64,000 nucleotides of DNA from an uncultured Candidatus Saccharibacteria bacterium (GTDB lineage Bacteria; Patescibacteriota; Minisyncoccia; Phycocordibacterales; UBA5272): positions 8,198 through 72,197 of the forward strand of contig CAZEIK010000004.1 of assembly GCA_964512315.1 (NCBI GenBank). Reading direction: 5' to 3'. The position numbers and the translations under genes were made by a program. Below the pieces are notes generated by a model. That model had not been told where the DNA came from. It searched no databases and was given only the letters and a program-made list of their open reading frames with translations. Positions 14,556 through 49,322 of this stretch are shown in pieces; positions within the stretch are counted from its first letter, which is position 1; each line of letters starts with the position of its first letter.

Positions 14556-15011
14556 TTACTTCACGTCAACTATCACCTCTTGGGTGTGTACTGCTGGCTT
14601 AACGGCCTCGTATATCTTCGCAACTTTACCAGACTCATCGACAAGCACACTCATGCGCTCGATACCCATGTATTCGCGACCCATGAATTTCTTCAGCCTC
14701 CATGCGCCATACTCCTTGATCATCTCTGTACTCTCATCAGAAAGAATTGGGAAGTTAAGCTCGAACTTGTCAGCGAATTTCTTGTGACTCTTTACGGTGT
14801 CTTTGCTCACACCTAACACAACCAGTCCCATCTTGCTCATCTCTTTAAAATTATCACGAAAATTACAAGCCTCAGTCGTACATCCTGGGGTATCATCCTT
14901 TGGATAAAAATATATCAGAACTTTCTTGCCAGCATAGTCCGACAACTTGTGCATCTTGCCATCTTGATCTGGTAACTCAAACTTCGGCGCCTTGTTTCCA
15001 ACTTTTAACAT
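14556..15011 (-). CDS. bcp: Peroxiredoxin Bcp (thiol peroxidase)
   Basis: 151 aa. PKDDTPGCTTEAC active-site motif. Confidence 0.85.
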   Translation of the reverse strand: MLKVGNKAPKFELPDQDGKMHKLSDYAGKKVLIYFYPKDDTPGCTTEACNFRDNFKEMSKMGLVVLGVSKDTVKSHKKFADKFELNFPILSDESTEMIKEYGAWRLKKFMGREYMGIERMSVLVDESGKVAKIYEAVKPAVHTQEVIVDVK

Positions 15012-44260: not shown

Positions 44261-44410
44261 TTATAGACCAAGACTAGAAAAAATATCTTTACTGCTATAC
44301 TTTTTAGAATTCTTTTTAGAGAACAAAGCCCTAGAAATCTCAACTTCTTTTTTGAGGCTACTCGAAATTTTTTGTATAAAAACCTCAACTTTTGAACTTT
44401 GTTTTAACAT
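44261..44410 (-). CDS. Putative small ORF upstream of the ParE-like toxin (candidate antitoxin, speculative)
   Basis: 49-aa minus-strand ORF (MLKQSSKVEVFIQKISSSLKKEVEISRALFSKKNSKKYSSKDIFSSLGL) ending 10 nt before the toxin start. No RHH/Phd-like motif is recognisable. Confidence 0.2.
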   Translation of the reverse strand: MLKQSSKVEVFIQKISSSLKKEVEISRALFSKKNSKKYSSKDIFSSLGL

Positions 44411-44445
44411 ATACATATTATAGCATATTTGATATTATAGTTAAC

Positions 44446-46635
44446 ATGAACAAAGATATAGAAAATCTAAAGAAGCCATACGAGGCTAAGTCAGTCGAAG
44501 CGGACATATACGAAGCTTGGCAGAAGTCAGGATATTTCACTCCAGAAAACTTGCCTAATGTAAAAAAGGATGCCGACGGCAAAGAAAAAGCTTATACAAT
44601 AATACTACCACCGCCAAATGTTACAGGTACACTGCATTGTGGACACGCCCTTATGCTTGCAATAGAAGACTCATTGGTAAGATTCAAAAGAATGAACGGA
44701 TACAGAACTCTGTGGCTACCAGGTACAGATCACGCTGCCATATCTACACAATCAGTTGTCGAGAAGAAAATATACAAAGAGGAAGGCAAAACTAGACATG
44801 ACCTTGGGCGTGAAGAAATGATGAAGAGAATCAATTCTTTTGCTATGGAGTCACAAAGCACAATAATATCTCAGTTTAAAGATATGGGTGCGTCACTAGA
44901 TTGGACAAGGTTAGCTTTTACTTTAGACGACACTAGGAATCGTGCGGTTAATACAATGTTCAAAAAGATGTATGACGACGGACTAGTATACAAAGGCAAC
45001 CGAATCGTAAACTGGGACCCGAAAGGACAAACAACAATATCAGACGATGAGATTGTATATGTAGAAGAAAAAACTAAATTTTACTATTTTAAATATGGAC
45101 CATTTGTAATTGGTACAGCGAGACCAGAGACAAAATTTGGAGACAAGTATGTAGTAATGAACCCTAACGACAAAAGATACGACCAATATAAACACGGCGA
45201 CAAGTTAACTGTCGAATGGATTAATGGACCTATTGAGGCAACTATTATAAAAGATGAGTCAGTTGATCCAGAATTTGGAACAGGAGTAATGACCATAACA
45301 CCTTGGCACTCTGTCGTTGACTTTGAGTTGGCACAAAAATACAACTTAGAATACGAGCAAATCATAGATAAATACGGAAAGCTTCTACCTATTGCAGAAG
45401 AATTTGCTGGCACAAAAATAAAAGAAGCTCGTGAAAAAATAGTAGAGAAATTAGCGAACAAAGGACTCTTGGTTAATAAAGATGGTCAAACTATAACAAT
45501 AGAGCAAATAGAAGACTATACACATAATATATCTACAGCTGAAAGAACTGGTGGAATAATCGAGCCTCAAATAATGAAGCAATGGTTCGTAGCAGTAAAC
45601 AAAGAGTTTGACCACTTTGGTAACAAAACTACACTTAAGAAACTAATGCACGAAGCTGTCTCTCTCGGTGAGATAAAAATAATGCCTGAGAGATACGACA
45701 AGGTTTATCATCACTGGATAGACAATCTGCGAGACTGGTGTATTAGTCGCCAAATATGGTACGGTCATCGTGTTCCAGTGTGGTACGACGAGAGCGACAA
45801 CATAGTTGCGGTAGGAGAAAATCCAAACAACGACAAATACAAACAAGATGAGGATACGCTAGATACTTGGTACTCAAGTGGTATGTGGACATTCTCTACT
45901 CTTGGCTGGCCTGATGCGACACCTGACTTTATCAAATACCACCCTACTGACGTACTTGAAACTGGTTACGACATACTCTTTTTCTGGGTTGCACGCATGA
46001 TACTATTCTCTACTTACGCTCTTAACCAAGTTCCATTTAAAAATGTTTATCTACATGGACTAGTTCTGGATGCCAAGGGTAAGAAAATGAGTAAGTCTGT
46101 TGGTAATGTATTAGACCCTCGTGACATGATAGAAAAATTTGGAACTGACGCTCTTCGTATGGGATTAATGGTTGGTAATGGTGTTGGTAATGATTTAAAA
46201 TTATCCGAAGATAAAGTCAAAGCTTACAAGCTTTTCGCCAACAAGATATGGAATGCGGCGAGGTTCGTAATGGAAAAGACCGAAGGGTACAAAGAAGTAG
46301 AATTAACAACCGAAGATAAGGCTTTGTATGATTCTTGGCAAGAAAAGCTGAGAGACATAACTAGTGACATAGAAGAATTCAGGCTACACCTTGCTAGTGA
46401 AAAGTTGTACGACTATTTCTGGAAGACTTTCTGTGATCAAATAATCGAAACACACAAGAAACGCATCATGGACAATGTTGACGCAGACTCTGCCAAGACA
46501 CTGCTACGCACAATACTACGTGAGAACATTGTCGCCCTACATCCATTCATGCCATTTATAACAGAAGAGTTGTGGAAATACGCCGGCAACAGCGATAACT
46601 TGCTGATAATACAACCTTGGCCTATCCACAGTTAA
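44446..46635 (+). CDS. valS: Valine--tRNA ligase (compact form lacking the C-terminal coiled-coil)
   Basis: PPPNVTGTLHCGHAL (HIGH) and KMSKSVGN (KMSKS). Homology begins at MNKDIENLKKPYE (ATG 44446). The ORF-track start at 44392 looks like an over-extension. Confidence 0.85.
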   Translation: MNKDIENLKKPYEAKSVEADIYEAWQKSGYFTPENLPNVKKDADGKEKAYTIILPPPNVTGTLHCGHALMLAIEDSLVRFKRMNGYRTLWLPGTDHAAISTQSVVEKKIYKEEGKTRHDLGREEMMKRINSFAMESQSTIISQFKDMGASLDWTRLAFTLDDTRNRAVNTMFKKMYDDGLVYKGNRIVNWDPKGQTTISDDEIVYVEEKTKFYYFKYGPFVIGTARPETKFGDKYVVMNPNDKRYDQYKHGDKLTVEWINGPIEATIIKDESVDPEFGTGVMTITPWHSVVDFELAQKYNLEYEQIIDKYGKLLPIAEEFAGTKIKEAREKIVEKLANKGLLVNKDGQTITIEQIEDYTHNISTAERTGGIIEPQIMKQWFVAVNKEFDHFGNKTTLKKLMHEAVSLGEIKIMPERYDKVYHHWIDNLRDWCISRQIWYGHRVPVWYDESDNIVAVGENPNNDKYKQDEDTLDTWYSSGMWTFSTLGWPDATPDFIKYHPTDVLETGYDILFFWVARMILFSTYALNQVPFKNVYLHGLVLDAKGKKMSKSVGNVLDPRDMIEKFGTDALRMGLMVGNGVGNDLKLSEDKVKAYKLFANKIWNAARFVMEKTEGYKEVELTTEDKALYDSWQEKLRDITSDIEEFRLHLASEKLYDYFWKTFCDQIIETHKKRIMDNVDADSAKTLLRTILRENIVALHPFMPFITEELWKYAGNSDNLLIIQPWPIHS

Positions 46636-47382: not shown

Positions 47383-47667
47383 TTAATTCGTATTTAAAGA
47401 GGTAAAAAACTCTTTGAATCTAGAGACAATAGGAACAACTTCACTGAATCTACTGACAGCGTCATCTGTTGCATGTGTGTCTCCAGTAAAAATATCCATG
47501 ATCGGTTGCAAGTAGTAGTAAGCACCAAAAACAAAACCGAGTACCACTACCCAATACACAGTCTTCATCGCTAGCCCAACATTAGCATGTGTCTTAAGTG
47601 AGCGGAGCATCTTATTGTTCTCCTTGGTTAGCTTGAGCAGCTCTTCAATTTGTTCTTGATTGTTCAT
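47383..47667 (-). CDS. Small single-pass membrane protein (hypothetical)
   Basis: 94 aa from the internal Met (MNNQEQIEELLKL…). The longer ORF-track version (to 47775) would overlap the tRNA-Arg gene and is rejected. Confidence 0.4.
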   Translation of the reverse strand: MNNQEQIEELLKLTKENNKMLRSLKTHANVGLAMKTVYWVVVLGFVFGAYYYLQPIMDIFTGDTHATDDAVSRFSEVVPIVSRFKEFFTSLNTN

Positions 47668-47688
47668 GTGATATAGTATAGCGATATT

Positions 47689-47760
47689 GCCCTCGTAGTT
47701 CAATGGATAGAACAGTCCCGTCCTAAGGGATTGATGTGGGTTCGATTCCTGCCGAGGGCA
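47689..47760 (+). tRNA. tRNA-Arg (anticodon CCU)
   Basis: Hand-folded. Acceptor GCCCTCG/CGAGGGC; D-arm GTTC-AATGGATA-GAAC; anticodon stem GTCCC/GGGAT with loop GUCCUAA; T-arm GTGGG-TTCGATT-CCTGC. Confidence 0.75.
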
Positions 47761-47761
47761 C

Positions 47762-47808
47762 AAAAGACAAAACACCCATCTAACACAGTGATGGGTGTTT
47801 TGTCTTTT
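47762..47808. terminator. Strong rho-independent terminator after tRNA-Arg
   Basis: Perfect 19-bp stem aaaagacaaaacacccatc / gatgggtgttttgtctttt with a 9-nt loop. Confidence 0.75.
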
Positions 47809-47999
47809 GTGATATTTAGGAGTAAGACACCTAAGTGTCTTACGTCAGGAATCGAATACGGGGTCGCGAAATAAGGAGTGAAGCGACTATATTTTGTGAC
47901 CGAATTTCCTGCCGACATAAAATATAAAAATAAAAAACGGCCTCCTTGTGGGAAGCCGGTTTGTGGGACTCAGCGTTGTTCCGCCGAGCTTTGTTCTGG

Positions 48000-48452
48000 C
48001 TACGTCAGCGTATAGCTGGCGGTAGCCGGTTGATTTTGCGCCCGGGCCTCGTTCGGCGTGCTCGCCGTTGCCCAGGATCCGTTCACGGCTGTCGTGTAGT
48101 AGCTCGATGCGTACACCGACTTGGAGCTGTCGACCTGACCGGTGTCGAAGCGTGAAGCCTTCTGTTCGCCGGTGGTGCCGGCGCTACCGTAGAAGCTGAT
48201 CACTGTCGGCACAACGGTCCACCCGGAAGCCGTTACGTTGGCGGTCTGATCGTTCAGGCCTTCGTTGCACGCACCTTGTTGCACCGAGCCCGTCGAGACG
48301 TTGATCGTGTCGAAAGCGGCTTCTTGCGCATTCAGCGCGACGGCGGGTTCGGTCGAGAGCTTCGTGATACCGGCAACGGAAGCGTTCGCAGGACCAGCGA
48401 TGCACAGTGCGGCAGCGGCCAATGAGGCCGCGAGTGACAATTTCAACTTCAT
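48000..48452 (-). CDS. Secreted hypothetical protein encoded on a GC-rich (~60%) foreign island
   Basis: 150 aa. Signal peptide MKLKLSLAASLAAAALCIAGPANA|SV. Ala/Thr/Ser/Gly-rich mature part. Strong SD (AGGAGA-N6-ATG). Codon usage is GC3-rich, unlike every other gene in the window. Confidence 0.6.
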   Translation of the reverse strand: MKLKLSLAASLAAAALCIAGPANASVAGITKLSTEPAVALNAQEAAFDTINVSTGSVQQGACNEGLNDQTANVTASGWTVVPTVISFYGSAGTTGEQKASRFDTGQVDSSKSVYASSYYTTAVNGSWATASTPNEARAQNQPATASYTLT

Positions 48453-48546
48453 AACGTATCTCCTAGGAGTTGGTTGATTGTGGCAAGCACGGTTCTGATA
48501 TTGCTAACCATGTACAAGTCCACTATTAATAATACACCCTAATCTA

Positions 48547-48562
48547 AATATTTGCAAATATT
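48547..48562. promoter_or_regulatory. Perfect 16-bp palindrome (aatatttgcaaatatt), a candidate operator overlapping a TTGACA -35-like hexamer
   Basis: Lies ~95 nt upstream of the island gene start. Self-complementary on inspection. Adjacent TTGACA at 48562–48567 on the minus strand. Confidence 0.4.
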
Positions 48563-48570
48563 GTCAAAAG

Positions 48571-48602
48571 AAAAGGTGGCCCGCGAAGCGGGCCACCTTT
48601 TC
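48571..48602. terminator. Bidirectional rho-independent terminator
   Basis: aaaaggtggcccgc-gaag-gcgggccacctttt: a 14-bp GC-rich stem with A/T tracts on both sides. Confidence 0.75.
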
Positions 48603-48614
48603 TTTTCTGTTTTC

Positions 48615-48860
48615 TTAACCTTTTATATTTAGTAGCTCCTCCAGTTTTGGCTGATTGAAGCCGATAACCACATCATTACCAATCTTGATAACTGGCACAC
48701 CCATTTGACCAGTCATCTCTAACACCTCTTTTCTGCGCTCAAGGTCAGCAGCAACATCATGATCAACAAATTTTACATTGTTAGCTGTAAACCAATCTTT
48801 GGCCATATGGCAAAAGTGACATGTTGGAGTGCTGTAAATTTCTACTACTGTATCGTTCAT
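48615..48860 (-). CDS. Glutaredoxin-like protein (NrdH/YruB-type)
   Basis: 81 aa. CHFC redox motif in TPTCHFCHMAKDWF. Thioredoxin fold length. Confidence 0.75.
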   Translation of the reverse strand: MNDTVVEIYSTPTCHFCHMAKDWFTANNVKFVDHDVAADLERRKEVLEMTGQMGVPVIKIGNDVVIGFNQPKLEELLNIKG

Positions 48861-48875
48861 ATACAGCTGAGTTTA

Positions 48876-49322
48876 CTAAAAGTTAGTATAAGTTGCAAAT
48901 ATATACTTTATGCTATTAAAAACTTTAATATAAGTAGGCAGCTCGGTCGAGAGGACTTGTACCGGTGAAGAAGTTGGATCGTATAGAATCACGACTTTCT
49001 CGCCATCTTTGGCAACTGGCATGTTGTTACGCAGATACTCCTCTTGCCCTCTGTCTGTATTTAAAAATTCATATTCCCCTTGTCTCTTGCTTAACTTAGC
49101 ACTAACCACATCTCTCTCCGTCTTAGCACCTGAGAGCCTCTCACTTAGCTGACTCCATTTGGACAAAAATTGCAAAGACTCAATACAAAAATATATAGTC
49201 AAAAGTAAAAATAGTATTCCAGTTAGCTTAGAATATTTAATTATTTTCCAAATTTTCTTTTGTTGATAGGAAGACATTAACATGATATAGTGTACAGCAT
49301 GTTTTACAGACCTCAAAACCAA
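48876..49322 (-). CDS. FtsB/DivIC-like septum-formation membrane protein (tentative)
   Basis: 148 aa (shorter if started at an internal Met). TM segment, then coiled coil, then a C-terminal EEYLRNNMPVAKDGEKVV resembling the FtsB/DivIC beta-domain. Confidence 0.45.
   Translation of the reverse strand: MVLRSVKHAVHYIMLMSSYQQKKIWKIIKYSKLTGILFLLLTIYFCIESLQFLSKWSQLSERLSGAKTERDVVSAKLSKRQGEYEFLNTDRGQEEYLRNNMPVAKDGEKVVILYDPTSSPVQVLSTELPTYIKVFNSIKYIFATYTNF

What the first reader, a model, noticed from the sequence alone, without database searches (positions are those of the whole stretch)
47935..48610. A ~0.55-kb GC-rich (~60% GC) island in a ~35% GC genome, encoding a secreted protein with its own promoter/operator and flanked by terminators next to tRNA-Arg
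From ~47935 to ~48475 the composition switches abruptly to GC-rich, with GC3-rich codons (GCG, CCG, GGC). This region carries a single minus-strand gene (48000..48452) for a 150-aa signal-peptide protein rich in Ala/Thr/Ser/Gly. The island is bounded by a GC-rich hairpin terminator on each side (47939–47959 and 48571–48602). It is preceded by an AT-rich promoter region containing a perfect 16-bp palindrome. It sits ~180 bp from a tRNA-Arg(CCU) gene, and tRNA genes are classic integration sites. It is either a very recent horizontal acquisition from a high-GC donor or an assembly/contamination chimera. Either way it needs verification.
Basis: seen in the sequence. Interest (0 to 1): 0.7.

Follow-up and report, generated by a model that had tools for sequence, protein, structure and literature searches.

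The report
GC-rich hypervariable secreted-protein gene in CPR
The GC-rich patch is real: it is one small gene for a secreted protein of unknown function, sitting in an insertion hot-spot next to a tRNA gene of an ultra-small (CPR/Patescibacteria) bacterium. It is neither an assembly error nor a fresh import, but an old, lineage-restricted gene that differs drastically between otherwise near-identical relatives while staying GC-rich.

Summary
Observation confirmed. Window 47938-48452 is 61% GC (GC3 0.74) in a 39% GC Patescibacteria genome. It is the only such patch in 64 kb and runs exactly from the ATG to the terminator of one minus-strand gene, a 150-aa protein with a signal peptide.

The "chimera or very recent HGT" reading is not supported.
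- Ten independent assemblies carry a GC-rich homologue in the same slot between grx and tRNA-Arg(CCU).
- Flanking proteins are 98-100% identical, but the island protein is only 37-43% identical to its relatives.
- Its five known alleles are recombinant mosaics (PHI-like P<0.0002), with dN/dS 0.45-0.76 against <=0.075 in the flanks.
- No homologue exists elsewhere among about 15 billion proteins, so no donor is visible.

The slot is empty (20-361 bp) in 41 of 63 other Patescibacteria species, so it is an insertion hot-spot. Sister species carry unrelated GC-rich signal-peptide genes behind a similar promoter.

Best reading: a foreign ATG-to-terminator unit was captured long ago, put under a host-type promoter and leader, and now evolves as a hypervariable, recombining secreted or surface protein. 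It probably acts at the host or phage interface. GC richness seems to be retained rather than decaying (S>W:W>S 23:15 against 76% expected, P=0.02; small sample). Function is unknown and AlphaFold2 gives no fold.

The parts
47689..47761 (+). tRNA-Arg(CCU). Its 3' end is the right-hand limit of conserved synteny; the variable slot begins immediately after it.
   Evidence: ARAGORN, Rfam tRNA 60.1 bits. The conserved DNA block shared with L001 ends at 47765. The tRNA is 100% identical in L001, L003 and L004.
47759..47811 (.). Perfect 22-nt inverted repeat overlapping the tRNA 3' end. Likely a tRNA or bidirectional terminator. Its sequence is replaced by a different one in related strains.
   Evidence: the repeat finder I1; alignment A2.
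47843..47856 (.). Inverted partial copy of the tRNA-Arg T-arm/3' end (14 nt, 93%). Possible scar of an old integration event.
   Evidence: the repeat finder I3; blastn-short 11/11, E=0.75. Weak on its own.
47906..47915 (+). Direct 10-nt copy (TTCCTGCCGA) of the tRNA-Arg 3' end. It corresponds to a clearer 15-nt copy in sister species L005.
   Evidence: the repeat finder D5. In L005 the copy is 15/15, E=0.003, and the sequence is shown. It lies between the tRNA and the island, so it does not bound the island.
47938..47958 (-). Intrinsic terminator of the island gene (8-bp stem with 6 GC pairs, followed by TTTTTTATTT).
   Evidence: Terminator scan. Nearly invariant across alleles.
47969..47988 (-). 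Conserved GC-rich 3'UTR hairpin (CUCGGCG-GAACAA-CGCUGAG).
   Evidence: Invariant block in A2 and A7. Appears as a hairpin in the MFE fold of the transcript.
48000..48452 (-). CDS of a 150-aa orphan secreted protein. GC 0.614, GC3 0.742. Hypervariable mosaic gene.
   Evidence: ORF listing and composition. This frame is the only one open in all five alleles. dN/dS, mosaic structure, absence of other homologues.
48381..48452 (-). Signal-peptide coding part: MKLK / LSLAASLAAAALCIAG / PANA|S, i.e. n-, h- and c-regions with an AXA cleavage motif. This is the conserved 5' anchor of the gene.
   Evidence: Read directly from the sequence. Conserved in A1 and A3, and at DNA level also shared partly with L005. 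No signal-peptide predictor was available.
48460..48464 (-). Shine-Dalgarno AGGAG, 7 nt upstream of the ATG.
   Evidence: Sequence. Invariant in all eight aligned loci.
48480..48523 (-). Conserved AT-rich 5' leader with a stem-loop (inner stem CAUGGUU/AACCGUG, outer stem GUGG/CCAC).
   Evidence: RNAalifold finds 13 pairs, 2 of them with compensatory double changes; alignment A4.
48529..48557 (-). Sigma-70-type promoter TTGCAA-N17-TATTAT (TAATAT in relatives).
   Evidence: Promoter scan. Conserved in the island family and in L005-L007.
48547..48562 (.). Perfect 16-bp palindrome AATATTTGCAAATATT overlapping the -35 hexamer. Only the 10-bp core ATTTGCAAAT is conserved.
48566..48606 (.). 19-bp-stem bidirectional terminator of the upstream grx gene. 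It insulates the island promoter from grx read-through.
   Evidence: Terminator scan; the repeat finder I2.
48615..48860 (-). Glutaredoxin-like gene, the conserved left-hand anchor of the slot.
   Evidence: Pfam PF00462, E=9e-18. 99-100% identical protein in L002-L004. grx/tRNA-Arg adjacency across Patescibacteria.

Best explanation
The island is a genuine monocistronic gene. It has its own promoter, a structured AT-rich leader, a strong ribosome-binding site, a 150-aa ORF, a 3'UTR hairpin and an intrinsic terminator. It encodes a small Sec-exported orphan protein in a Patescibacteria (CPR) bacterium.

It occupies a slot between grx and the 3' end of tRNA-Arg(CCU) that is ancestrally empty and has been filled repeatedly in this phylum.

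Most likely history (inferred): the common ancestor of this genus-level clade captured an ATG-to-terminator segment from a source of about 60% GC or higher and placed it under a host-type promoter and leader.

Since then (shown): the gene has evolved as a hypervariable locus. Its conserved ends are the leader plus signal peptide on one side and the C-terminus plus 3'UTR and terminator on the other. The middle between them is reshuffled among strains by homologous recombination and accumulates amino-acid changes 20-100 times faster than the neighbouring genes.

Function (inferred): this pattern is typical of exposed proteins under diversifying or frequency-dependent selection. For an episymbiotic CPR cell that would mean recognition of the host cell, or evasion of phage or host defence.

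GC content (suggestive only): the high GC has been largely retained across all alleles, and the substitution spectrum is closer to compositional equilibrium than to the host's AT-biased decay.
For: - Real and coding. The frame is uniquely open in all five alleles, while the other five frames carry 1-8 stops each; the chance of an open frame is 0.003-0.011 per allele. Conserved motifs include RFDTGQ, GSWAT and CNEG. Promoter, RBS and terminator are present. There is no Rfam match, and the transcript fold z-score is only -2.2.
- Not a chimera. Ten independent assemblies show the same architecture.
- Hypervariable. Flanking proteins are 98-100% identical and flank DNA is 94% identical over 7.4 kb to L085, while the island protein is only 37-43% identical to its relatives.
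- Rates. Island dN is 0.22-0.50, dS 0.39-0.82, dN/dS 0.45-0.76. Flank dN is at most 0.024 and dN/dS at most 0.075.
- Mosaic. L003 and L085 are 99% identical over nt 1-103 and then diverge; L004 and L085 are 94% identical over a different 157-nt block. Nine of the ten possible 2|3 splits occur among 59 informative sites, 984 of 1711 site pairs are incompatible, and the incompatibilities are spatially clustered (P<0.0002).
- Insertion hot-spot. The grx to tRNA-Arg(CCU) gap is 20-361 bp in 41 of 63 species.
- Sister species. L005-L007 carry other GC-rich signal-peptide ORFs behind the same promoter type. The only similarity to the island family is in the signal peptide (hhalign probability 22%), and their 3'UTRs are unrelated.
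- Foreign-type composition. GC3 is 0.70-0.75 in all alleles. Codon choice is non-host: ACG 61% vs 3%, CCG 76% vs 15%, GGC 60% vs 20%. The 3'UTR is equally GC-rich, so this is a property of the DNA segment and not only of its codons.
- Retention. GC3 is 0.73 at both conserved and variable columns. Polarised ingroup singletons give S>W 23 against W>S 15, where 76% S>W is expected under host bias (P=0.024). Third positions give 9 against 5, where 88% is expected (P=0.02).
- Context. HGT and genomic islands are common in Patescibacteria (PMC12455944).
Against: - No donor or any outside homologue was found among about 15 billion proteins, so foreign origin rests on composition alone.
- Only five alleles exist. 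The polarisation test has 38 events, assumes a host equilibrium GC3 of 0.35, and could be distorted by recombination from unsampled alleles.
- dN/dS is below 1, so relaxed constraint cannot be separated from diversifying selection.
- There is no fold (AF2 pLDDT 36), no anchor motif, and no expression or localisation data, so the proposed role at the host or phage interface is inference by analogy.
- The sharp GC boundary at the ATG could also reflect selection on the transcript body.
Confidence: 0.55

Rival explanations
1. The GC richness was generated and is maintained in place. The gene need not be foreign. As a recombination hot-spot it experiences GC-biased gene conversion (or selection for GC-rich mRNA) that drives GC3 far above the AT-biased genome background.
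For: The locus is demonstrably recombining. Recombining bacterial genes have higher GC3 in 11 of 14 taxa examined (PMC4450053). GC3 is equally high in the conserved and the newest variable columns. The substitution spectrum is nearer equilibrium than host bias predicts, with an implied equilibrium GC3 of about 0.69. No donor family exists.
Against: The reported bacterial gBGC effects are modest shifts between gene classes, whereas here GC3 goes from 0.35 to 0.74. The GC step is abrupt at the ATG and at the terminator, whereas conversion tracts should give gradients into the conserved leader, which is only 36% GC although it is part of the recombining flank. The accessory EamA gene in the same slot is also GC-elevated (GC3 0.53-0.56) without being hypervariable, which fits import better.
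Confidence: 0.15
2. Ongoing import from an external GC-rich gene pool. Alleles diverged in a high-GC organism, for example the CPR cell's host, and are repeatedly swapped into the CPR genome by natural transformation through the conserved ends (host mimicry).
For: The codon usage resembles that of a high-GC organism. Conserved GC-rich ends (signal peptide, C-terminus and 3'UTR) could serve as recombination anchors. GC is not decaying. Allele dS exceeds flank dS. Patescibacteria take up foreign genes (PMC12455944).
Against: All five alleles in the databases sit on CPR-type contigs next to grx or EamA. No copy on any GC-rich contig was found among 15 billion proteins, in JGI metagenomes, in plasmids or in viral contigs. 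A host is usually more abundant than its epibiont and would be expected to assemble.
Confidence: 0.1
3. One reading: a very recent horizontal acquisition from a high-GC donor, or an assembly or contamination chimera.
For: Abrupt composition switch, foreign codon usage and proximity to a tRNA.
Against: Ten independent assemblies have the same slot architecture with both junctions spanned. The alleles are deeply diverged. The promoter, leader and terminator are conserved and the promoter and leader are host-like. No donor is known.
Confidence: 0.02
4. Programmed diversification: a diversity-generating retroelement, or gene conversion from silent cassettes, rewrites the gene.
For: Extreme variability confined to one small secreted-protein gene. 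From my own knowledge, DGRs are frequent in CPR genomes.
Against: No second copy or template-like repeat of any island segment exists in the 64-kb window or in the flanks of related loci. Variation consists of block replacements and in-frame indels rather than point changes at a fixed set of sites. Only 64 kb of the genome was examined, and reverse-transcriptase domains were not scanned.
Confidence: 0.05
5. The GC-rich block is a structured non-coding RNA, as GC-rich islands in AT-rich genomes often are, and the ORF is incidental.
For: GC-rich islands in AT-rich genomes often mark RNAs. The transcript folds slightly better than shuffled sequences (z=-2.2). The 5' and 3' hairpins are conserved.
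Against: No Rfam family matches. One frame stays open through many indels in five alleles while the other frames are closed. The GC3>GC1, GC2 pattern, the RBS, the signal peptide and conserved peptide motifs all point to coding. The body of the sequence is too variable for a conserved fold.
Confidence: 0.02

Closest known systems
tRNA-adjacent genomic islands and islets (integrase-mediated insertion at a tRNA 3' end)
   Same: It abuts the 3' end of a tRNA gene and has atypical composition. Relatives have empty sites. Short partial copies of the tRNA 3' end lie nearby, and the slot holds different cargo in different lineages.
   Different: It is only about 0.55 kb, or about 1.1 kb with EamA. 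There is no integrase. The tRNA-fragment repeats do not flank the GC-rich gene. It is expressed from a conserved host-type promoter and leader. It is old and vertically retained across a clade.
Mosaic hypervariable surface-protein genes shaped by recombination and diversifying selection, for example Wolbachia wsp hypervariable-region shuffling or the Neisseria and Streptococcus mosaic antigens (own knowledge; the wsp paper PMC2843615 was only listed and not read)
   Same: Conserved ends with block-wise shuffled variable segments. dN/dS is far above that of neighbouring genes. The protein is exported. Each strain has its own allele.
   Different: Orphan family with no recognisable fold or anchor. 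The organism is a CPR bacterium. The gene is a sharp GC3 0.74 compositional island in a 39% GC genome, which is not a feature of those systems.
Hypervariable PTD-repeat gene of a Gracilibacterium (PMC6851277)
   Same: A CPR genome in which one gene is so variable within populations that assemblies break there. Here, contigs L090 and L091 end 27-37 bp after grx, and L005 has a scaffold gap inside its cassette.
   Different: That case is variation in the copy number and order of 9-mer repeats. Here there are no repeats, but mosaic unique sequence and a GC anomaly.
Recombining bacterial genes with raised GC3, attributed to GC-biased gene conversion (PMC4450053)
   Same: A recombining gene with much higher GC3 than its non-recombining neighbours, enriched in non-optimal GC-ending codons.
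   Different: The magnitude is far larger (+0.39 in GC3), and the edges are sharp and coincide with the ATG and the terminator.
Integron gene cassettes
   Same: Promoterless variable ORFs, each with its own 3' hairpin, expressed from one conserved upstream promoter. Cassettes often deviate in GC from the host.
   Different: There is no intI integrase or attI next to the promoter (the neighbour is grx). There is a single cassette and no attC core sites. This resemblance is by analogy only.

Membership tests
tRNA-integrated genomic island | Insertion directly at the 3' end of a tRNA gene, with an empty site in relatives | tested here: met
   Conserved synteny ends at the tRNA-Arg 3' end. The grx to tRNA-Arg gap is 20-361 bp in 41 of 63 species, against 1.0-1.6 kb in this clade.
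tRNA-integrated genomic island | Atypical base composition | tested here: met
   GC 0.61 against 0.39; GC3 5.5 sd above the window mean.
tRNA-integrated genomic island | Integrase or recombinase gene within the island | tested here: not met
   The only ORF with coding signals between grx and the tRNA is the 150-aa gene. It matches no Pfam or NCBIfam family. The neighbours are grx, p94 and Hsp20.
tRNA-integrated genomic island | Direct repeats of the tRNA 3' end (att sites) flanking the island | tested here: not met
   The partial copies (10-nt direct at 47906-47915, 14-nt inverted at 47843-47856, 15-nt in L005) all lie between the tRNA and the island terminator. None lies on the grx side.
Mosaic hypervariable exported-protein locus | Conserved flanks and ends, with variable blocks exchanged among alleles by recombination | tested here: met
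   Block-wise identities. PHI-like P<0.0002, with nine of ten possible splits present. Conserved leader, signal peptide and 3'UTR.
Mosaic hypervariable exported-protein locus | Non-synonymous rate strongly elevated relative to neighbouring genes | tested here: met
   dN 0.22-0.50 against at most 0.024; dN/dS 0.45-0.76 against at most 0.075.
Mosaic hypervariable exported-protein locus | Protein exposed on the cell surface or secreted | tested here: inconclusive
   The N-terminus has the n/h/c regions and the AXA motif of a Sec signal peptide, judged by inspection, and it is conserved in all alleles. No predictor or experiment was available. There is no lipobox (the residue before Cys17 is Leu), no LPXTG motif and no C-terminal TM segment.
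Diversity-generating retroelement target | Nearby template repeat nearly identical to the variable region, plus a reverse transcriptase | tested here: not met
   No repeat of any island segment in the 64-kb window (best match 13 nt, E=0.43). Reverse-transcriptase domains were not scanned, and the rest of the genome was not seen.
Integron cassette | IntI integrase and attI adjacent to the promoter, and attC at the cassette 3' end | tested here: not met
   The upstream neighbour is grx with its own terminator. The 3' hairpins are an ordinary terminator and a 7-bp stem.
Known structured RNA family | Match to an Rfam covariance model | tested here: not met
   Only the two tRNAs pass. All other hits are far below gathering scores.
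Any described protein family | Significant match to Pfam, NCBIfam, PHROGs or PDB sequences | tested here: not met
   The exhaustive HMM search returns only the five alleles.

The most novel reading that the evidence does not exclude
A locus-specific process keeps one exported-protein gene both hypervariable and GC-rich (GC3 about 0.73) inside a 39% GC CPR genome. One possibility is exceptionally strong recombination-coupled GC-biased conversion at a diversifying-selection hot-spot. The other is a 'capture slot', where a conserved promoter and leader next to tRNA-Arg(CCU) repeatedly receives promoterless GC-rich ORF-plus-terminator cassettes from high-GC partners or hosts, giving the epibiont host-derived or host-mimicking surface proteins. 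The unrelated GC-rich signal-peptide cassettes behind the same promoter in sister species L005-L007 fit the second version.
Probability: 0.15. Interest if true: 0.75.

Novelty: new member of a known kind. Interest (0 to 1): 0.45.

Why it matters
CPR/Patescibacteria are thought to live attached to other microbes, yet the molecules that decide host range or phage susceptibility are largely unknown. This locus has the signature expected of such a molecule: a single strongly signalled, exported, strain-specific protein that recombines among near-identical genomes. Its conserved leader and 3'UTR give ready-made baits for typing strains in metagenomes.

The persistence of GC3 of about 0.73 across deeply diverged alleles in an AT-rich, reduced genome is also a compact natural test case. 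It could separate amelioration from GC-biased conversion or selection in bacteria.

On the practical side, compositional islands like this in MAGs should not be discarded automatically as contamination.

Tried and rejected
- Structure. AlphaFold2 on the 5-allele alignment gave pLDDT 36 and pTM 0.12, so no fold search was run.
- More alleles and donors. These searches found nothing new: the JGI metagenome scan with the protein profile and with the leader DNA pattern, viral contigs, plasmids by tblastn, and a third homologue search with the profile. Exact look-ups of the flanking Grx and p94 proteins gave only known loci plus two contigs that end at the slot.
- Annotation. Pfam, NCBIfam, PHROGs and PDB sequences gave no match.
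- Remote homology between the island family and the L006/L007 cassette. Only the signal peptides align.
- Structured RNA. Rejected.
- Operator reading of the palindrome. Weakened, because only the 10-bp core around the -35 hexamer TTGCAA is conserved and the same half-site occurs upstream of grx.
- att-flanked island. Rejected.
- Silent cassettes or a DGR template within 64 kb. None found.
- First polarisation test on synonymous sites only (10 vs 5). Too small to decide. It was replaced by the singleton tests.
- Sample or environment identification from run accessions in the literature. No hits.
- Literature search for a described equivalent. None found.
Full report

Yes. In 200-bp windows, GC rises from about 0.44 to 0.56-0.625 between 47900 and 48500 and then falls back to about 0.38. 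The 64-kb window averages 0.39, not 0.35.

The rise is sharply bounded:

| Segment | Coordinates | GC |
|---|---|---|
| Promoter and leader | 48453-48565 | 0.363 |
| CDS | 48000-48452 | 0.614 |
| 3'UTR and terminator | 47938-47999 | 0.613 |
| Spacer to the tRNA | 47762-47937 | 0.369 |

It is the only patch of this size and GC level in the window.

The minus-strand ORF 48000..48452 encodes 150 aa (A28, S18, T18, G11). Its GC by codon position is 0.53/0.57/0.74. Among 52 ORFs of at least 150 aa, GC3 has mean 0.349 and sd 0.072, so this ORF is the extreme outlier. The same protein in host codon usage would be 0.48 GC with GC3 0.34. Codon choice is the opposite of the host's: ACG 61% vs 3%, CCG 76% vs 15%, GGC 60% vs 20%.

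The flanking features are also confirmed:
- tRNA-Arg(CCU) at 47689-47761.
- An intrinsic terminator at 47958..47938 on the minus strand, and a 19-bp-stem hairpin at 48566-48606. The latter is the terminator of the upstream glutaredoxin gene (Pfam PF00462).
- A promoter-like site TTGCAA-N17-TATTAT at 48557..48529.
- AGGAG 7 nt before the ATG.
- The perfect 16-bp palindrome at 48547-48562.

**2. Is it a gene?**

The annotated frame is the only one open in all five known alleles. The other five frames carry 1-8 stops each, and the chance of an open frame is 0.003-0.011 per allele. The alleles differ by many indels yet all keep the frame. They share peptide motifs: the signal peptide, QCNEG, W-T-x-x-P, RFDTGQ and GSWAT.

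No Rfam family matches, and the whole transcript folds only slightly better than shuffled sequence (z=-2.2).

The N-terminus MKLK-LSLAASLAAAALCIAG-PANA|S has the n/h/c layout and the AXA site of a Sec signal peptide. This is by inspection, since no predictor was available. There is no lipobox, LPXTG motif or pilin motif.

The protein matches nothing in Pfam, NCBIfam, PHROGs, PDB sequences, plasmids or viral contigs. AlphaFold2 gives no confident model (pLDDT 36).

**3. What the relatives show**

*How rare the family is.* A word-indexed search of 5.8 billion clusters and an exhaustive HMM search of 1.84 billion representatives recover only five proteins, P0001 to P0005. All are 150-181 aa and share 37-55% pairwise identity.

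*Same slot in independent assemblies.* Every one of these proteins sits in the same place: grx, sometimes a half-size EamA gene, the gene itself, tRNA-Arg(CCU), p94, tRNA-Phe, Hsp20, valS. This holds in nine further independent assemblies from ENA and Logan (L001-L004, L085-L089). All alleles are GC-rich (0.58-0.62, GC3 0.70-0.75) in backgrounds of 0.37-0.42. This excludes an assembly chimera.

*Flanks against the gene.* The flanks are almost identical between these genomes:
- Grx 99-100%, p148 99%, LepA 98%, Hsp20 99.4% and p94 100% at the protein level.
- 94% DNA identity over 7.4 kb to L085.
- The island protein is only 37-43% identical to its relatives.

| Gene(s) | dN | dS | dN/dS |
|---|---|---|---|
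| Island gene | 0.22-0.50 | 0.39-0.82 | 0.45-0.76 |
| Flanking genes | up to 0.024 | 0.11-0.48 | up to 0.075 |

*Mosaic alleles.* Different allele pairs share different blocks:
- L003 and L085 are 99% identical over nt 1-103 and then diverge.
- L004 and L085 are 94% identical over another 157 nt.
- L001 and L004 are 92% identical over 140 nt.
- The window and L085 share one type of C-terminus plus 3'UTR, while L001, L003 and L004 share another.

Among 59 informative sites, nine of the ten possible 2|3 partitions occur. 984 of 1711 site pairs fail the four-gamete test. Incompatibility is spatially clustered, with no permutation out of 5000 as low as the observed value.

*Conserved ends.* The promoter, a leader of about 70 nt, the start of the signal peptide, the 3'UTR hairpin and the terminator are nearly invariant. 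The leader contains a stem-loop with two compensatory double changes.

**4. The slot**

A Grx-based scan of species-representative genomes places the organism in the Patescibacteria. The closest MAGs are labelled uncultured Ca. Saccharibacteria, and others are labelled Paceibacteria or Parcubacteria. The window's own genome is not among the representatives.

In 41 of the 63 species where tRNA-Arg(CCU) lies within 5 kb downstream of grx, the gap is only 20-361 bp. The window's clade has 1.0-1.6 kb there. Elsewhere the slot is filled by assorted genes, mostly at host GC. So this is an ancestrally empty insertion hot-spot.

The sister species L005-L007 (Grx 91-92% identical) carry other GC-rich ORFs there (0.56-0.59 GC, GC3 0.63-0.64). 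These have signal peptides and sit behind the same TTGCAA-N17-TAATAT promoter. Their mature parts and 3'UTRs show no similarity to the island family (hhalign aligns only the signal peptide, probability 22%). That second family is also an orphan.

Short copies of the tRNA 3' end lie between the tRNA and the island. There is a 15-nt exact copy in L005 (E=0.003), and 10-nt direct and 14-nt inverted copies in the window. This suggests past integrase activity at this tRNA. They do not bracket the GC-rich gene, and no integrase is present.

Two contigs with the identical Grx end 27-37 bp after its stop codon, and L005 has a scaffold gap inside its cassette. Both are what strain heterogeneity at this locus would produce in assemblies.

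**5. Is the GC being lost?**

GC3 is 0.73 both at amino-acid-invariant columns and at variable or indel columns.

I polarised singleton substitutions in the four ingroup alleles, using the most divergent allele (the window's) as outgroup:

| Sites | S>W | W>S | Observed S>W | Expected under host bias | P |
|---|---|---|---|---|---|
| All positions | 23 | 15 | 60% | 76% | 0.024 |
| Third positions | 9 | 5 | 64% | 88% | 0.02 |

The expectation assumes the host's equilibrium GC3 of 0.35. The implied equilibrium GC3 is about 0.69. The spectrum is therefore closer to compositional equilibrium than to free amelioration. The sample is small, and recombination from unsampled alleles could contribute. 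I treat this as suggestive only.

**6. Interpretation**

*Shown:*
- A real, independently transcribed, exported-protein gene.
- It is lineage-restricted and lies in an insertion hot-spot.
- It is hypervariable and recombinant between near-identical genomes.
- It is compositionally foreign from the ATG to the terminator, in every allele.

*Inferred:*
- An old capture of a promoterless ORF plus terminator from a source of about 60% GC or higher, under a host-type promoter and leader.
- Diversifying or frequency-dependent selection on an exposed protein at the host-cell or phage interface.
- Homologous exchange through the conserved ends.

*Rivals:*
- In-place GC elevation by recombination-coupled biased conversion. 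Recombining bacterial genes do have higher GC3 (PMC4450053). Here, though, the effect is far larger and its edges are abrupt.
- Continuing import from a GC-rich partner. No such copy exists in any database searched.
- DGR or silent-cassette switching. No template was found within 64 kb.
- Non-coding RNA. Rejected.
Rejected.

**7. Comparison with known systems**

The locus behaves like the mosaic hypervariable exported-protein genes of other symbionts and pathogens, and it sits like a tRNA-adjacent genomic islet. It fails the defining tests for an integrase/att island, an integron cassette and a DGR target (see the membership table).

A hypervariable gene that fragments assemblies has been described in a CPR Gracilibacterium, but that one is repeat-based (PMC6851277). 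HGT and genomic islands are common in Patescibacteria (PMC12455944).

I found no report of a GC-rich hypervariable orphan locus like this one.

**8. Verdict**

This is a new orphan family in a known kind of locus, with one unexplained feature: a sharp, persistent GC island across diverged alleles.

Interest is moderate (0.45). It is a good candidate marker and a possible host- or phage-interaction determinant for this CPR clade. Function is unknown, only five alleles exist, and the evidence that GC is maintained is weak.

Noticed in passing
window 44392-46635 (valS) vs L001:2702-4345: The 3' part of valS next to Hsp20 is about 89% identical in DNA to L001. Further into the gene, identity drops to about 71% DNA and 63% protein over residues 190-747, while the adjacent Hsp20 is 99.4% identical. 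This looks like a recombination breakpoint or allele replacement inside an essential aminoacyl-tRNA synthetase gene. In sister species L006, the position beyond Hsp20 holds a 154-aa membrane ORF of 54-56% GC.
   Followed up: no
L001:176-649, L085:9400-9834, L006:6283-6729 (absent from window, L003, L004): A half-size EamA/DMT-type membrane gene (144-157 aa, GC about 0.50, GC3 0.53-0.56, opposite strand) is present or absent between the grx terminator and the island promoter. It is a second GC-elevated accessory module in the same slot.
   Followed up: partly
L004:1694-2204 vs window 47383-47688: In L004, similarity to the window stops right at the 5' end of tRNA-Arg, and the next gene is a p94-like protein that is only 32% identical. 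So the tRNA is a synteny and recombination breakpoint on both of its sides.
   Followed up: no
L005:5650-6600: Sister species L005 has a 100-N scaffold gap inside its GC-rich cassette. This is followed by an AT-rich short-chain-dehydrogenase-like ORF (judged by eye) and then an exact 15-nt duplicate of the tRNA-Arg 3' end about 130 bp before the real tRNA. That is an att-like scar of an integration event.
   Followed up: partly
L090 and L091 (contig ends); window about 48580-48615: Two Logan contigs carrying the identical Grx end 27-37 bp after its stop codon, exactly where the variable slot begins. This suggests within-sample allele heterogeneity that breaks assemblies.
   Followed up: no
window 48893-48902 and 48547-48562: The motif ATATTTGCAA (= TTGCAAATAT) occurs three times in 64 kb against 0.48 expected. 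Two copies form the palindrome, and one lies upstream of grx inside the 3' end of the p148 ORF, where TTGCAA-N17-TAAACT precedes the grx ATG. It is probably the lineage's -35 plus upstream-element consensus rather than an operator.
   Followed up: partly
grx/tRNA-Arg(CCU) pair, loci L009-L083: Adjacency of a NrdH/Grx-like gene and tRNA-Arg(CCU) is conserved across very diverse Patescibacteria labelled Paceibacteria, Kaiserbacteria, Nomurabacteria, Gracilibacteria and Saccharibacteria. The tRNA can be in either orientation. This is an unusually deep micro-synteny for this phylum.
   Followed up: partly
window 47759-47811: A perfect 22-nt inverted repeat begins inside the last 3 nt of tRNA-Arg. 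Related strains have a different hairpin at the same place, so the terminator has been replaced rather than mutated.
   Followed up: no
window 14556-15011 (-): This ORF has the second-highest GC3 in the window (0.52, GC 0.44). It is far below the island but above every other ORF. Not examined.
   Followed up: no
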